IMG/VR virus record: IMGVR_UViG_2881085443_000001
Source of the DNA: an uncultured virus (IMG/VR IMGVR_UViG_2881085443_000001)
Taxonomy: Duplodnaviria > Heunggongvirae > Uroviricota > Caudoviricetes > Crassvirales
Strand: one strand, 5' to 3'
Length of the DNA: 64,000 nucleotides
Part shown: one piece after another, positions 25,117-30,400 of the stretch
Layout: each line of letters opens with the position of its first letter
Position numbering within the stretch: the first letter of the stretch is position 1
Made by a program: the position numbers and the translations under genes
Notes under the pieces: generated by a model
Told to the model about the DNA's origin: nothing
What the model saw: only the letters and a program-made list of their open reading frames with translations
Database searches by the model: none

Positions 25117-25227
25117 GGGGAAGTAGCTCAGTAGGCTAGAGCGATTGCAAAACTATCGATTATCATTTTTTAAAATGTAGATAGTTAATTCGACAGTAGG
25201 TCAGCGGTTCGAGTCCGTTCTTCTCCA
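25117..25227 (+). ncRNA. tRNA-Ala-like RNA with anticodon loop replaced by a long hairpin
   Basis: Acceptor GGGGAAG/CTTCTCC-A with G3-U70, D-arm GCTC/GAGC, T-arm AGCGG-TTCGAGT-CCGTT, and an extended arm of about 55 nt. Confidence 0.7.
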
Positions 25228-25378
25228 CGAGGATCTGTTAAGAAAGTACTGACAATGTATTCACAGATGGGGGTAGTAATAGGATTCTTACCAATGCTAC
25301 ACGCGAAAATGATAGTTCAACCGGTAAATACAATCGTAAGTCATTAGGTATTGACAGCTTGGAAAGACAAGCAAAAAC

Positions 25379-25489
25379 AGGGATGTGGCGGAATGGTAGA
25401 CGCTAGATATGGATAGAGAATTGAGTCGATTTAAATTCATCGAGTTAAGAGAATCACTTAACGTTTGGGTTCGAGTCCCAGCTTCCCAA
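25379..25489 (+). ncRNA. tRNA-Leu-like RNA with an insertion between D and anticodon arms
   Basis: TGGCGGAATGGTAGACGC D-arm, GTTAAG/CTTAAC variable arm, TTGGG-TTCGAGT-CCCAG T-arm, imperfect acceptor stem. Confidence 0.6.
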
Positions 25490-25644
25490 CAAAGTCGAGG
25501 TGCTTAATGCTTGTTTGACGACTTTTACAAAAACATAGAAGCTTTGACAGCCGGAATAGACGGATCGGTAGTTTTCGGTACTCACATAATAGAACCGATG
25601 GCGAAAAAGGAAAAGAACTTTTGACAGTAGGAAAGACTACGGTT

Positions 25645-25866: not shown

Positions 25867-25938
25867 GGGACTGTAGCTTAGACGGTAAAGCATATACCCG
25901 AAAAGGTATAGACGGCGGTTCGATTCCGCCCTCGCCCG
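25867..25938 (+). ncRNA. tRNA-like RNA with mismatched acceptor stem and 6-bp/6-nt anticodon arm
   Basis: D-arm GCTT/AAGC, TATACC-CGAAAA-GGTATA, 3-nt GAC connector, GGCGG-TTCGATT-CCGCC T-arm. Confidence 0.6.
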
Positions 25939-25943
25939 CAAAA

Positions 25944-26003
25944 TTGTTCGTTGACGTATTACAAGTTTTTGTATGGACCGGAGTTCGATTCTCCGCGCCT
26001 CCA
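25944..26003 (+). ncRNA. ssrA: two-piece tmRNA, acceptor piece
   Basis: GGAC-CGGAG-TTCGATT-CTCCG-CGCCTCC-A; pairs with the downstream GGGGGCG; 5' boundary approximate. Confidence 0.85.
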
Positions 26004-26147
26004 CGAATCGCTCGCCACGATGTAAGTTTCTTTATTCTTTAAAAATAAAGTGGTGGAGTCACCGAGAAATCGTTGACCTAAGTTTATGAAATGCGAATGT
26101 GGTTTTTACTTCCTGAAAATGGTTTAAAAATAAAACCCATTAGAAAA

Positions 26148-26290
26148 GGGGGCGACTGGTTTTGACAGCAATGCACGAGTAGTAAAGAGAACTTTTTTAT
26201 TTTTTAACCGGCAAATTAATTAGCCTTAACAATGCACCGCTTAGAGCAGTAGCGTAGTTACGAAACTTGGGAGAGCGTCAATCTCCCTTT
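26148..26290 (+). ncRNA. ssrA: two-piece tmRNA, coding piece (tag ORF 26210-26257, GKLISLNNAPLRAVA)
   Basis: Begins GGGGGCGACTGGTTTTGACAGC like Bacteroidetes tmRNA 5' ends; resume codon GGC after TAACC; tag ends AVA-stop. Confidence 0.85.
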
Positions 26291-26295
26291 TTTTT
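26269..26295 (+). terminator. intrinsic terminator closing the RNA operon
   Basis: GGGAGA-GCGTCAA-TCTCCC followed by T8. Confidence 0.75.
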
Positions 26296-26698
26296 ACAAA
26301 ACTAAAACCATTTCATCTACCTTAACGCTGCCGTTAGCGTATCCCATTTCCTGGTAGATCTTTTTCAAATTTTGGTTTTTTACGACGGTATAAATGTATT
26401 TGCTTCCTTTTCTTTTGGCTAGCTCATTCAGTTCATAGATCAGGATCTTAATCGCTTCTTTGCGGTCCTTGTCTTTATAATCAAAATTGGATATGATAAA
26501 CTCACTCCAAGCAATAGCGCTATTGGTAAAATAAATAAAACCGGCCACAATATTCACGCCGTCCTTATGCACCATCATTCCTCCGGTGCCGTTCTCCGGC
26601 AAAAAATCCCTTGGCGGTGCGGTCCATCGAAAGGCTTTCCACCACTGGCACAAAACATCGTAATCAGTTTCGTTTAAAAATCGTACGGAGAATTCCAT
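26294..26698 (-). CDS. GNAT-fold virion assembly protein
   Basis: 134 aa, acetyltransferase-like pattern, in the usual podovirus position between tail and ejection genes. Confidence 0.55.
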   Translation of the reverse strand: MEFSVRFLNETDYDVLCQWWKAFRWTAPPRDFLPENGTGGMMVHKDGVNIVAGFIYFTNSAIAWSEFIISNFDYKDKDRKEAIKILIYELNELAKRKGSKYIYTVVKNQNLKKIYQEMGYANGSVKVDEMVLVL

Positions 26699-27450: not shown

Positions 27451-30400
27451 TTAAGGATTACAAATAGCCGCGCCTGCGCTACTTACTATTGACTGCGCTA
27501 TTATCTCTTCACATGGATTGTCGCCTGTCTCTGTTCTGGTTAAGATATGTATCTGTTCTGATCCGAATTCGTCAATATAAACAACATGATCATTCGCCGG
27601 ATGAATTGAAGGGTGTATTGCAATGTACCAAAAAGAAGATGTTGGCTGAGGCAATGTTCCAGCGGCATTTACGGTAATATTAATTGTTGCTGTACTAGAG
27701 GCAATTCCGTTACTTACTTGGTAAACGATGCTGTCTGTAAGCGTTGCTGTGCCGTCATGTGTATAAGTAATTGTGTTGTCCAGATTTACTACTGCTAATC
27801 CGTTTACCGGAGGTGCTGCAATGGTCACTACTGGCGTGCCTGTAATCTGATCGTTAAATAAAACATTTACAGTAGTACTGGCCGCATTATTCAATGTTAC
27901 ATTGTCGTTGACTAAAACGGGTTTTCTTTCGGTGTAATCCCAAATCAAATATAAAATTTCATCAGGTTCTGTTCTGTTGAAAAGAAAACTGGCCGTATTG
28001 GTTTCGAAAAATCCAGGTTCCATAATTTTAGTAACCGTCAAAAAAGTAGCTTGTGCCAAAATTATGTTTATATCTGCTTCGGTATAAACGGTATCGGAAA
28101 CTAAATAACCAATGCGGTTGAAATTTTCCAGCGAAAACTTACCGGAGGCCAAATTATCTTTAAAAGACTGTATCGTGAAAACAGAATTATTTAACGGGAA
28201 TTTACCAACTCCTTCAATACCTGTCTCAATTAGAAATTTACTTACCGGAGCAGTATCAAATAAATCATCTGTCGCGTACAACAATGACGCTCCCCATTTG
28301 AATCTGTTGGTAATGTTTTTACCAATATCTGCTGCATCGTTTACAATGATGCTGGCTATTTTTAGTTCAGCGCCAATAGGACAAACATTAGCTATTTCGT
28401 AACTTATTGAAGCGCTGACTGCAGTTACAGTTACGGTAACAATGTTTTTTACCAAACTACTTCTGTTAAACGTGATGTTCCCTAAGCCGGTCACATTAGA
28501 AACAACTTCTGTTGCACCGTCAAATAACGCTTCAATGGTAGCGTTCCCAGAAACAATATTATAATTCAATATAATATCTCCAGCAAGATCATTTAACTTA
28601 AATTGGTACGTGAACGTTCCGCTTTGTTTTTCTTTGATAATCTGATTACCACAACTTAGCTGCAATAACTTTACAGGTTCATCGGCTATTGAAACCACAT
28701 ATTGCTTGGTGTACGGATCAAAACCACCTAGCTTTTTAGCGTTCGGCTGCAATCTGAAAATATCACGGAACCAGTCCACCATTCCATCTACAATAGCAGT
28801 TACGCCGTCAATAGACAATCTTACAATATTTCCTTGTTTGGTATTGGCGTAGTAAATCTGGTAATCGTTTTCGGCAAAACTCTCTGGGTTTTTACCAATT
28901 CCATTATCTCCCAAGTACGTCAGCTCCGGTCCTAGTATTTGATTCGTTGCGCTTACGTTAGAACTTCCGTCGCTGTTGTAAATCAATCCTTTTTCGAACA
29001 TTACTTTAGAAGCCTTCGATTCTTTCAATACTAAAATATCATTGTCGCGACTGTGTAATTTCTGGATACTTCCGTACTGCTTGTCTAGCTCTTTTGAATT
29101 TCCTGTAGCTACATTGAACACATTCAATCCATTAATATTACTGCTTTCCACGTATGATTCGCTGTAGATCAAGTCTGCATAACGTCGTACGGCTTTATAT
29201 TTTTCAATAGAAACCACCGACGGACGTAAATCAATATTCAGGTATGGTTTATTGAACGCGTCTTTTATAACATAACTCTCGGCGCCGTTTCCTTGGCAAA
29301 AGCAATTGTAAAAATCCAAATCAATTTCAGCAGGGAGTACCGTTGTTTGGTTTTGTAAATTACCTTGATGCAATCCGTTTTTTATTTCGAATGTTTGTGC
29401 CGTTTCATAATAAATCTCAGCATCAATCGATTTTTTCTCTTCGGTTTCCAGAACTATCAATCCATTAGCAGCTGTTATTTTTATAGAGCCATTCATATAC
29501 GATTGGTGGCCTGTACTTCCAAATATACCCAAGTCTTCTCCGTTTCCGTTTAATTCATTATGGATTCTTAAATATAAAGCTCCGGTTTCACTTTCTACAA
29601 AACGGCTAAATAAACCTACCTCAGTAACTCCACGAACTACGCCGTTTGTAGGATATACAAAAGGAAAGGTATTGTCGCTTACCTCAGCATCGTACCATAA
29701 CTTAAAATTAGCATAATCCGCACTGGCGTAAAACGTTTTCGTGAATTTTTTATCTCCACCTGCGCTGCCGTATTTAACGTTAGTTAATTCAATGTCAATC
29801 CTGGATCCTTGTACAATAGGTTTATCCGTATATAATCCGGTCACTGGATCTTTGTCTGAAAACGGACCAACATACATATCAAAACTATCGCCTCTGCTTG
29901 CTGCTTGTCCAGTTTTTTCTAAAAATCCATCTGGAATATAATCCATAGAAATTCCTGCAGGGATCTTTATTTTCATATAAAGTCCCGGTAATTCTTTGAT
30001 TTCAGTGTTGTTAAAATCTACATTCCCTTCAAGGAATTCTTTTTCTTTTGTGGCGATTTCCAATACTTTTACCTTTGTCAATGTAGGAACAAAACCATTT
30101 GTATCTGATTTAAAAATAAGAATGTCGCCAACTTTTACTTTGTCTTTGTTGTCGTTCTCTAATTTGATCCAGCGAAACAATCCTTCAACGTAAAAAGTAG
30201 TGGCGTAAATAGTTTGAAACTGTAGCGTTTGCTGTTTTACCACAATCTTATATCTATCAGCGTATGCCGGTGGATTACTTAATAAACTGACTTTTATTTT
30301 GTTTTTTGATAGCGCTAAATTTTGCGGTATAAAAATAGTGTTATTCAGCTGCGTCAAAACCGTAGTTTGTCTATTGAATTCGTCCATATAAATCAATCCT

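What the first reader, a model, noticed from the sequence alone, without database searches (positions are those of the whole stretch)
25944..26295. Compact circularly permuted (two-piece) tmRNA in a Bacteroidetes phage
Seen: the tmRNA 3' end (GGAC, T-arm, CGCCTCC-A at 26003) lies upstream of its 5' end (GGGGGCGACTGGTTTTGACAGC at 26148), separated by 144 nt. The ends form a 7-bp acceptor stem with the G3-U70 alanine determinant and A73. The pieces can also pair through GCAA/TTGT, GTAGTA/TATTAC and GAAC/GTTC. A tag ORF runs from resume codon GGC (26210) as GKLISLNNAPLRAVA-stop, followed by a terminator. The mature RNA would be only about 200 nt, with no room for pseudoknots 2-4 and a simple hairpin where pk1 is expected. 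Established: two-piece tmRNAs are known mainly from Alphaproteobacteria, some Betaproteobacteria and marine cyanobacteria, while Bacteroidetes hosts typically use one-piece genes. Inference: an independent permutation that rescues ribosomes during infection using host SmpB, with a non-host tag.
Basis: partly seen in the sequence, partly recalled or inferred. Interest (0 to 1): 0.88.

Follow-up and report, generated by a model that had tools for sequence, protein, structure and literature searches.

The report
Minimal two-piece tmRNA in flavobacterial prophage
A prophage inside a Bacteroidota bacterium carries its own small, back-to-front (two-piece) gene for tmRNA, the RNA that frees stalled ribosomes; it is real but belongs to a phage family seen before, so it is a variant, not a new kind.

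Summary
Window 25939-26295 (+) is a circularly permuted tmRNA gene. The acceptor piece (25939-26003) lies upstream, then a 144-nt intervening segment, then the coding piece (26148-26295) with the tag GKLISLNNAPLRAVA and a terminator.

Evidence:
- Rfam RF04321 gives 45.1 bits (cut-off 47; E 1.5e-7 genome-wide).
- A covariance model built from 12 other family members gives 102.8 bits (E 3.4e-21).
- In 21 aligned sequences the acceptor stem across the intervening segment is paired in every cell. Two positions covary, and G3:U70 is invariant.
- A syntenic orthologue (L049) has three compensatory acceptor changes and the same tag frame.

There are no pseudoknots, and the mature RNA would be about 210 nt. 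Its tRNA-like halves resemble the host's own one-piece tmRNA (23/26 and 33/41 identical), so this permutation is separate from the alpha, beta and cyanobacterial lineages.

It is not unique. 22 of 32 IMG/VR hits are permuted, Maribacter phage Panino has an annotated member, and crAss-like phage cr53_1 has an unannotated one. This scan has met the family on other DNA several times.

Processing, charging and tagging are inferred, not shown. ARAGORN misses this copy.

The parts
25867..25938 (+). tRNA-like element that directly abuts the acceptor piece. It has 3 acceptor mismatches and a 6-nt CGAAAA loop where the anticodon loop should be. It is the likely RNase P/RNase Z processing handle that frees the 5' end of the acceptor piece.
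   Evidence: Rfam tRNA 40 bits; fold. In 7 of 23 family sequences a tRNA-type T arm ends just before the acceptor piece. Panino has tRNA-Asp at this place. L049 has a tRNA-like element with a GNRA-capped arm there.
25939..26003 (+). Acceptor piece, 65 nt as encoded. It holds the P2 3' strands (GTTC 25946-25949, TATTAC 25957-25962, TTGT 25969-25972), GGAC 25975-25978, the T arm 25979-25995, the acceptor 3' strand 25996-26002 and discriminator A 26003. CCA is not encoded.
   Evidence: Metagenome contigs rejoin the window at 25939-25941 from three different left junctions.
26004..26147 (+). Intervening segment, 144 nt, presumably removed during maturation. By eye, its first ~90 nt are largely conserved in the orthologue L049. 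A GGTGGAGTC-[hairpin]-GACCTAA motif is shared with L005 and L028.
   Evidence: Segment length varies from 20 to 266 nt in the family. In L026 the segment is a whole tRNA-Ala. Its fold is no better than shuffled sequence, z -0.25.
26148..26209 (+). 5' part of the coding piece. It holds the acceptor 5' strand GGGGGCG (26148-26154), the D-loop analogue ACTGGTTTTGACAG, the P2 5' strands (26168-26192) and a 17-nt U/A-rich linker ending in TTAACC before the resume codon. There is no pseudoknot 1.
   Evidence: 23 of 26 nt are identical to the host tmRNA 5' end.
26210..26257 (+). Tag reading frame: resume codon GGC, 15 codons reading GKLISLNNAPLRAVA, then stop TAG.
   Evidence: L006 encodes GKVISLNNAPLRAVA; of its four base changes, two are synonymous and one turns the stop TAG into TAA. 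L049 encodes GKLISLNNTELRAAA. 18 of 19 tags read by the script end in Ala.
26269..26295 (+). Intrinsic-terminator-like hairpin (GGGAGA/TCTCCC stem, 7-nt loop) plus T8. This is the probable 3' end of the coding piece.
   Evidence: The family sequences I checked by eye show a hairpin plus T-run after the tag. Metagenome contigs diverge from the window at 26294-26298.

Best explanation
This is a genuine phage-borne, circularly permuted tmRNA (ssrA) gene of a pseudoknot-free family found in phages of Bacteroidota.

Proposed pathway (inferred):
1. The RNA cluster is transcribed on the + strand, opposite to the flanking virion genes, as a precursor.
2. Cleavage after the upstream tRNA-like element sets the 5' end of the acceptor piece at about 25939.
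3. The acceptor stem forms across the 144-nt intervening segment and, with the T arm, makes a tRNA-like substrate.
4. RNase P cuts before G26148.
5. A 3' processing activity trims after A26003, and the CCA-adding enzyme completes the end.
6. The terminator sets the 3' end of the coding piece.

The two pieces (about 68 nt and about 148 nt) stay together through the 7-bp acceptor stem and a three-part helix P2.

Proposed action (inferred): alanyl-tRNA synthetase charges the RNA through G3:U70 and A73. The host's single SmpB delivers it to stalled ribosomes. Translation resumes at GGC 26210 and adds GKLISLNNAPLRAVA. This frees ribosomes and marks the products, to the benefit of phage protein synthesis.

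Shown here: homology, gene order, covariation, tag-frame conservation and context. Not shown: every processing, charging and tagging step.
For: Model matches:
- RF04321 tmRNA_permuted matches over its whole length at 45.1 bits, E 2.9e-7, and E 1.5e-7 genome-wide.
- Model R1, built from 12 family members without this sequence or its orthologue, gives 102.8 bits, E 3.4e-21. Other members not used in the model score 87-122 bits.

Structure and covariation:
- RNAalifold on an unguided MAFFT alignment of 21 sequences recovers the T arm, the acceptor stem across the segment, and P2a.
- Pair counts: acceptor stem 100% of cells paired. Two pairs covary (AU16/GC4/UA1 and CG8/GC7/AU3/UA2/GU1). G3:U70 is present in 21 of 21.
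- T arm 98% paired, P2a 91%. The whole structure is 83.6% paired, against 48-56% when partners are slid; 0 of 500 shuffles reach the observed value.
- P2 duplex energy is -13.67 for cognate pieces and -9.21 kcal/mol for non-cognate pieces, over 26 sequences.

Orthologue and tags:
- L049 lies at the same locus of a related phage. It has acceptor GGGGAGG/CCTCTCC (three compensatory changes), the same terminator, and tag GKLISLNNTELRAAA.
- Tags open 56-63 nt from the 5' end in 19 of 23 sequences read by script, after a UAAC-like motif. 18 of those 19 end in Ala.

Context:
- The host has its own one-piece tmRNA (134 bits, tag GENNYALAA).
- The genome has one SmpB, outside the prophage.
- The tRNA-like halves are 23/26 and 33/41 identical to the host tmRNA.
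- Related metagenome contigs rejoin the window at 25939-25941 and leave it at 26294-26298, matching the predicted gene ends.
Against: - No expression or processing data were obtained.
- ARAGORN finds nothing here, even at lowered thresholds.
- The Rfam score is 1.9 bits under the curated cut-off.
- All four pseudoknots of ordinary tmRNA are missing.
- The outer P2 helices are only 53% and 73% paired on the MAFFT alignment, and no column-consistent outer helix could be defined on the second alignment.
- The single-sequence cofold prefers other pairings.
- Only 2 of 67 syntenic relatives carry the gene, and the cultured relative phi18:3 shows no credible match (best E 0.14, 11.4 bits). The gene is therefore dispensable.
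- The tag ends in AVA, not the host's LAA, so its action as a degron is uncertain.
Confidence: 0.85

Rival explanations
1. The RNA is a real two-piece tmRNA homologue that works against the host rather than as a rescue factor. It could compete with the host tmRNA for the single SmpB, AlaRS and EF-Tu. Or it could add a tag that is not a degron, or is a different one. Either way the phage would silence or redirect host trans-translation.
For: The tag differs from the host tag (GKLISLNNAPLRAVA against GENNYALAA). A sub-family shares the core APLRA[VT]A (WIN, L006, L030, L004). There is one SmpB for two tmRNAs. A tRNA-like-domain-only tmRNA of mycobacteriophage DS6A has been reported as an inhibitor of tmRNA (passages of PMC4131195, and PMC11915505). 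Anticodon-less tRNA-Ala-like genes sit in the same RNA cluster.
Against: A complete tag frame with resume context, stop codon and an Ala-rich end is kept across the family. An inhibitor would not need this. 13 of 19 tags end in AA, like ordinary degrons.
Confidence: 0.1
2. It is a decaying or non-functional remnant: for example leftovers of an ssrA attachment site, or a dead cassette carried along in the phage tRNA cluster.
For: It is patchy: 2 of 67 syntenic relatives carry it. ARAGORN does not call it. It sits among degenerate tRNA-like elements.
Against: Both halves are present and covary with each other. The tag frame is intact and conserved. The host ssrA lies about 170 kb away on the same contig, so this is not an attachment-site duplicate. 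The score on the family model is as high as for other members.
Confidence: 0.04
3. It is a chance juxtaposition of a tRNA 3' half and a tmRNA-like 5' motif.
For: Such false calls do occur. The 'permuted tmRNA' that ARAGORN reports in Cellulophaga phage phi4:1 lies over tRNA genes and matches neither RF04321 nor the family HMMs. The one genome contigs pattern hit (L118) is a tRNA-Ala gene followed by a standard tmRNA.
Against: E 3.4e-21 on an independent family model. Compensatory changes are seen in the orthologue. Tag and terminator are conserved.
Confidence: 0.01

Closest known systems
tmRNA of Maribacter phage Panino (GenBank PP540027.1, feature 27557-27889; Environ Microbiome 2024, PMC11590407)
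   Same: Same family. The gene order is permuted, the tRNA-like domain is of Bacteroidota type, there are no pseudoknots, and a tRNA sits immediately upstream. The tag GKVMNVSFAPTVRQFA starts with Gly. RF04321 gives 62.2 bits and the acceptor-piece HMM gives E 6.9e-15. The phage shares virion genes with this prophage.
   Different: Its intervening segment is 38-39 nt, against 144 nt here. It lies at another genome position, inside a 20-tRNA array. ARAGORN calls it and the record annotates it. [quoted passage not shown]
Two-piece tmRNAs of Alphaproteobacteria (Caulobacter), a betaproteobacterial lineage and cyanobacteria (Rfam RF04321, built from RF01849-51; PMC11915505)
   Same: The gene order is permuted, with the acceptor piece first. 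An intervening segment is excised by tRNA-processing enzymes. The pieces are held together by base pairing. The tag frame lies on the downstream piece.
   Different: Those are chromosomal, are the cell's only tmRNA, and keep pseudoknots. This one is phage-borne, sits beside an intact host one-piece gene, has no pseudoknots, and has a tRNA-like domain like that of Bacteroidota one-piece tmRNA. The RF04321 seed holds only alpha, beta and cyanobacterial sequences.
Phage-encoded two-piece tmRNAs of marine myophages (OM43 phage Melnitz, pelagimyophages; PMC9004378)
   Same: A phage-carried permuted ssrA gene, presumed to use the host SmpB.
   Different: Melnitz's gene is of alphaproteobacterial type and sits behind a glutamine riboswitch (abstract and passages). 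In that paper's supplementary table, the only 'Permuted' entry for a Bacteroidetes phage is Cellulophaga phage phi4:1. Here that entry looks like an ARAGORN false call.
The host's own one-piece tmRNA (G000:C12:127330-127726), and one-piece tmRNAs of Callevirus phages (Calle_2, MT732433.1, 42950-43309)
   Same: The 5' motif GACTGGTTTTGACAGC, the TTTGGAC-T arm-CTCCA 3' end, the GGC (Gly) resume codon and G3:U70 are shared.
   Different: Standard gene order, 360-397 nt. The host gene matches the standard model RF00023 at 134 bits and carries tag GENNYALAA.
Unannotated member in crAss-like phage cr53_1 (NC_055889.1, about 93.0-93.3 kb, Suoliviridae)
   Same: R1 gives 67.5 bits over the full model. 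The gene order is permuted. I read the tag GNTSYVMDYTGIAA by eye.
   Different: A different phage order (Crassvirales). There is no feature at this place in the record, and ARAGORN finds nothing.

Membership tests
tmRNA, permuted (two-piece) form | tRNA-like domain: 7-bp acceptor stem with G3:U70 and discriminator A73, and a T arm with a GTTCGAnTC loop | tested here: met
   Sequence; RF04321 alignment. In 21 family sequences the acceptor stem is 100% paired, G3:U70 is present in 21 of 21, and the T arm is 98% paired.
tmRNA, permuted (two-piece) form | The 3' half of the tRNA-like domain is encoded upstream of the 5' half, separated by an intervening segment | tested here: met
   The 3' end is at 26003 and the 5' end at 26148, 144 nt apart. 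22 of 32 viral loci show the same order.
tmRNA, permuted (two-piece) form | Score at or above the curated Rfam cut-off for RF04321 (47 bits) | tested here: inconclusive
   45.1 bits, which is 1.9 bits short; E 1.5e-7 genome-wide. The seed has no Bacteroidota or phage sequences. Relative Panino passes at 62.2 bits.
tmRNA, permuted (two-piece) form | Tag reading frame with a resume codon, a stop codon and a hydrophobic, Ala-rich C-terminus, conserved in relatives | tested here: met
   GKLISLNNAPLRAVA-TAG. L006 and L049 keep the frame. 18 of 19 script-read tags end in Ala.
tmRNA, permuted (two-piece) form | Pseudoknots PK1-PK4 (typical of tmRNA but not universal) | tested here: not met
   Only 17 unpaired nt lie between P2 and the resume codon. 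The terminator follows the tag after 11 nt. The same holds across the family. This is a departure from typical tmRNA, not from the definition of the permuted form.
tmRNA, permuted (two-piece) form | Cleavage into two RNAs, CCA addition, alanylation, SmpB binding and tagging | not testable with these tools
   The host SmpB gene is present. No RNA run that could show RNA ends was available.
   102.8 bits, E 3.4e-21, model positions 1-177. Members outside the model score 87-122 bits. The host one-piece tmRNA scores 36.3 bits.
Alpha, beta or cyanobacterial two-piece lineages | Lineage-specific sequence and pseudoknots (RF01849, RF01850, RF01851) | not tested
   The three models were not reported separately. 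One search left out lower-scoring overlapping clan matches. Indirect evidence: the tRNA-like halves are 23/26 and 33/41 identical to the Bacteroidota host's one-piece tmRNA, and 85-97% identical over 27-46 nt to tmRNA genes of the same genus.

The most novel reading that the evidence does not exclude
The cassette may not be a spare rescue RNA. It could be part of a phage 'alanyl-RNA toolkit'. On this reading a pseudoknot-free two-piece tmRNA, carrying a family-specific tag core (APLRA[VT]A) unlike the host degron, works together with the neighbouring anticodon-less tRNA-Ala-like RNAs. Together they would capture AlaRS and SmpB and re-route trans-translation. Possible uses are sparing phage products, marking host ones, or overcoming defences that cut mRNA or stall ribosomes. 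The lysogen would then hold two competing tmRNA systems on one SmpB.
Probability: 0.1. Interest if true: 0.8.

Novelty: new variant of a known kind. Interest (0 to 1): 0.45.

Why it matters
1. The family is a further origin of gene permutation in tmRNA. It derives from Bacteroidota-type tmRNA and appears confined to phages. With one pattern, 12 viral contigs matched, while the only match among the species-representative genomes was a false positive.

2. It is a natural minimal tmRNA of about 210 nt with a tag frame but no pseudoknots. This bears on the old question of what the pseudoknots are for. It also offers a small substrate for structural work with SmpB and the ribosome.

3. This copy sits in an integrated prophage, next to an intact host one-piece tmRNA and a single SmpB. 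If the strain is in culture, a lysogen is at hand in which processing, competition between the two RNAs and the fate of the two tags could be tested directly.

4. Standard annotation misses it. ARAGORN finds nothing and Rfam scores just under its cut-off. Family-specific models would therefore improve phage annotation.

Tried and rejected
- **ARAGORN:** default and lowered thresholds find no tmRNA in the window.
- **blastn against INPHARED:** the 1.4-kb cluster gave no match. Short queries found only one-piece Callevirus tmRNAs or unrelated tRNAs. The exception was a 27-nt seed that led to cr53_1.
- **Cultured relatives:** RF04321 found no credible permuted tmRNA in the four records searched: phi18:3, Podoviridae sp. 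ctfjg026 (MW202828.1), elemoE 6-9C and Calle_2. phi18:3 gave only E 0.14. The best Calle_2 match was 25.3 bits and began near the annotated 3' end of its one-piece tmRNA gene.
- **Expression:** no RNA holder was listed. The runs I laid are contigs, probably of DNA, and cannot show RNA ends or expression level.
- **First covariance model:** I rebuilt it from a shorter alignment.
- **Outer P2 helices:** no column-consistent outer helix could be defined on the MAFFT alignment. Per-sequence duplexes were used instead.
- **Alternative pairing:** the coding-piece tail (GAAACUUG, GCGUCAAU) can pair with the acceptor-piece 5' region in the cofold. I rejected it. L006 and L002 lack the complementarity, and L049's change breaks a pair without compensation.
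- **Attachment-site remnant:** rejected, because the host ssrA is about 170 kb away and both halves covary.
- **Cellulophaga phage phi4:1:** listed as 'Permuted' in a published supplementary table, but found to be a probable ARAGORN false call.
- **TTTGACAG motif:** 4 copies in the window against 3.47 expected, so the overall count is not unusual. Three of the four lie in the RNA cluster.
- **Supplementary Table S2 of PMC11915505:** this table gives tmRNA form by taxon. It could not be read because the stored file is cut. I therefore cannot say whether that database already holds this family.

Full report
**Observation.**
- T arm: CGGAG-TTCGATT-CTCCG, 25979-25995.
- Acceptor 3' strand: CGCCTCC, 25996-26002, followed by discriminator A26003 and then CGA. 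CCA is therefore not encoded.
- 5' strand: GGGGGCG, 26148-26154, which lies 144 nt further on. It is followed by ACTGGTTTTGACAGC.
- The two strands form seven pairs, including G3:U70.
- Tag frame: it opens at GGC 26210, reads GKLISLNNAPLRAVA, and stops at TAG 26255-26257.
- Terminator: a hairpin at 26269-26287 plus eight T.

ARAGORN reports nothing in the window, even at lowered thresholds. Rfam's permuted-tmRNA model RF04321 matches 25945-26257 over its whole length. The score is 45.1 bits against a cut-off of 47, with E 2.9e-7 in the local search and E 1.5e-7 over the whole genome.

**Context.**
- The window is G000:C12:273358-337357, inside an 862-kb contig of a 3.84-Mb, 99.99%-complete genome.
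- Many of the window's larger ORFs match phage protein families, and none that I scanned matched a typical host gene. Matches include portal, large terminase, virion proteins, a 2840-aa virion protein, replication and recombination genes, and endolysin.
- The terminase is 57% identical to those of Cellulophaga phages phi18:3, phi46:3, phi13:2 and phi19:3. phi18:3 is classified in Pachyviridae, genus Baltivirus.
- Host genes lie to the left. To the right are a large serine recombinase, then conjugative-transposon genes. This is an integrated prophage.
- The host has its own one-piece tmRNA at C12:127330-127726 (134 bits, tag GENNYALAA).
- The genome has one SmpB gene, at C12:577544, outside the prophage.
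- The RNA genes lie on the + strand, between virion genes that run on the - strand.

**A family, not a singleton.**
- A scan of IMG/VR for the 5' motif returned 32 loci.
- In 22 of them the matching T arm and 3' acceptor strand lie 20-266 nt upstream, so they are permuted.
- In 8 they lie about 355-376 nt downstream, which is the standard order. In 2 I found no partner.
- ARAGORN of 23 (the window plus the 22) as permuted tmRNA, but not the window copy.

**Covariation.** I aligned 21 sequences with MAFFT. I left out L017, which is identical to L002 here, and L020, whose segment is 266 nt.
- RNAalifold recovered the T arm, the acceptor stem across the segment, and helix P2a without guidance.
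- Pair counts:

| Helix | Cells paired | Notes |
|---|---|---|
| Acceptor stem | 100% | Two covarying pairs (AU16/GC4/UA1; CG8/GC7/AU3/UA2/GU1); G3:U70 in 21 of 21 |
| T arm | 98% | |
| P2a | 91% | |
| P2c | 73% | |
| P2b | 53% | |
| Whole structure | 83.6% | 48-56% with slid partners; 0 of 500 shuffles reach it |

- One caveat: I picked permuted loci by requiring at least 6 of 7 acceptor pairs. However, 22 of the 24 loci without a standard partner had such a partner.
- The outer helices shift register between sequences, so I compared duplex energies instead. Cognate pieces average -13.67 kcal/mol and non-cognate pieces -9.21, over 26 sequences.
- Per-sequence duplexes show the same three-part P2 built from different sequences.

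**Independent membership test.** I built covariance model R1 from 12 members with short segments. It excludes the window and its orthologue.
- R1 hits window 25936-26199 at 102.8 bits, E 3.4e-21, full length.
- Members outside the model score 87-122 bits.
- The host's one-piece tmRNA scores 36.3 bits.

**Orthologue.** The neighbouring gene (26294-26698, - strand) has 67 syntenic relatives in viral contigs. Only 2 of them, L049 and L050, carry the tmRNA; the tmRNA stretch I compared is identical between the two. In L049:
- The acceptor is GGGGAGG/CCTCTCC, three compensatory changes relative to the window.
- The tag is GKLISLNNTELRAAA, followed by TAG.
- By eye, the terminator and the first ~90 nt of the intervening segment are largely conserved.

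The gene is therefore an accessory cassette. Related metagenome contigs rejoin the window at 25939-25941 from three different left junctions and diverge at 26294-26298. These positions match the predicted gene ends. Those contigs say nothing about expression.

**Tags.**
- In 19 of 23 sequences a script found the resume codon (GGC or GAC) 56-63 nt from the 5' end, after a UAAC-like motif like the host's.
- 18 of the 19 tags end in Ala, and 13 end in AA.
- L006, from a different phage, encodes GKVISLNNAPLRAVA. It differs from the window by four base changes: two synonymous, one turning the stop TAG into TAA, and one Leu to Val.
- A sub-family shares the core APLRA[VT]A.

**Architecture.**
- Only a 17-nt U/A-rich linker lies between P2 and the resume codon.
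- The terminator follows the stop codon after 11 nt.
- There is no pseudoknot 1 and no room for pseudoknots 2-4.
- The A/U hairpin seen in a single-sequence fold is not conserved.
- The mature RNA would be about 68 + 148 nt.
- The 5' end of the acceptor piece abuts a tRNA-like element (25867-25938). A tRNA-type T arm ends just upstream of the acceptor piece in 7 of 23 family sequences, and Panino has tRNA-Asp there.
- In others a TAnnTTTG-like box precedes the piece. The Bacteroidota -7 promoter consensus is recalled from memory, not taken from a call.
- The discriminator A plus the following C is invariant, and the rest of CCA is not encoded.

**Origin.**
- The two tRNA-like halves are 23/26 and 33/41 identical to the host's own tmRNA.
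- I searched 400 other genomes of the genus. The best non-self match is 56.3 bits over 33 nt. The matches listed are 27-46 nt pieces (85-97% identical). Where I checked, as in G362, they lie in standard order about 370 nt apart, as in a host one-piece tmRNA gene. None of these genomes carries the permuted gene.
- A permuted-order pattern found 12 viral contigs.
- The same pattern found only one hit among the species-representative genomes. That hit is a tRNA-Ala gene followed by a standard tmRNA.
- The pattern with a 120-150 nt gap found none.
- The family therefore looks phage-confined and derived from Bacteroidota-type tmRNA. It is separate from the alpha, beta and cyanobacterial lineages that make up the Rfam seed (passages of PMC11915505).

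**What is known.**
- Phage-borne two-piece tmRNAs are published. The Melnitz paper (PMC9004378) reports 53 of 133 unique phage tmRNAs called two-piece by ARAGORN (abstract and passages).
- Its supplementary table lists one 'Permuted' entry for a Bacteroidetes phage, Cellulophaga phi4:1. Here that call lies over tRNA genes and matches neither RF04321 nor the family HMMs.
- Maribacter phage Panino carries a true member. It is annotated as tmRNA in PP540027.1, scores 62.2 bits on RF04321, and ARAGORN marks it 'Permuted'. [quoted passage not shown]
- crAss-like phage cr53_1 has an unannotated member.
- Full-text searches found no paper describing the family. The searches were: 'permuted tmRNA'+phage; 'two-piece tmRNA'; tmRNA+'crAss-like'; Panino/Maribacter/tmRNA; and tmRNA+two-piece+Bacteroidetes+phage.
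- I could not read Table S2 of PMC11915505. It may already list such sequences.
- Earlier notes of this scan report the same family on other DNA at least eight times.

**Verdict.** This is a real permuted tmRNA gene and a member of a pseudoknot-free family of Bacteroidota phages. Function is inferred from anatomy. It is a new variant of a known kind and of moderate interest. This copy has two added points: standard tools miss it, and it sits in a lysogen beside the host's own tmRNA.

Noticed in passing
window 25117-25227 (+); loci L152-L168: A tRNA-Ala-like gene: GGGGAAG...CTTCTCCA with G3:U70, normal D and T arms, Rfam tRNA 46.3 bits. Its anticodon arm is replaced by a 46-nt insert with a 7-bp hairpin. 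A viral-contig scan found 17 loci with the same ends, 97-120 nt long. Their inserts differ in sequence and in position (D loop in some, anticodon arm in others). Several keep only a mini-hairpin where the anticodon arm should be. They cannot decode codons, and their function is unknown.
   Followed up: partly
window 25379-25489 (+) and 25867-25938 (+): Two more aberrant tRNA-like elements. The first has a tRNA-Leu-like 5' half with a 55-nt insert (Rfam 24.3 bits). The second has three acceptor mismatches and a 6-nt CGAAAA loop, and ends one base before the tmRNA acceptor piece. L049 has a tRNA-like element with a GNRA-capped arm at the same place.
   Followed up: partly
window 26004-26095; L049, L005, L028: By eye, the first ~90 nt of the intervening segment are largely conserved between the window and L049, while the rest differs. 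A GGTGGAGTC-[short hairpin with covarying stem, GAAA or GUUA loop]-GACCTAA motif recurs in the segments of L005 and L028, which come from much larger phage contigs. In L026 the segment is a complete tRNA-Ala(TGC) gene. The segment may hold a functional element.
   Followed up: partly
G000:C12, about 273.3-344 kb (window plus L115 and L116): A Pachyviridae-like podophage genome is integrated in the chromosome. Host genes (MFS transporter, BlaI/BlaR-like) lie to the left. To the right are a 499-aa serine recombinase and an integrase-SAM-like protein, then conjugative-transposon genes (PRTRC, TraQ). No tyrosine integrase was found on this contig. The cultured relatives were isolated as lytic phages.
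   Followed up: partly
window 25203-25276 and 25465-25549 (+); 25543, 25620: Weak permuted-tmRNA-like matches were found (R1: 18.1 and 14.4 bits; RF04321: 21.9 bits). In each, the 3' end of an aberrant tRNA-like element is followed by a GGGG...GGATTC or ...TTTGACAGC motif. Three of the window's four TTTGACAG copies lie in this 1.4-kb cluster. These may be decayed tmRNA pieces or chance.
   Followed up: no
NC_021788.1 (Cellulophaga phage phi4:1), locus L148 13919-14580: ARAGORN's 'permuted tmRNA' in this phage is listed in a published supplementary table. It overlaps tRNA genes and matches neither RF04321 nor the family HMMs, so it is probably a false call.
   Followed up: yes
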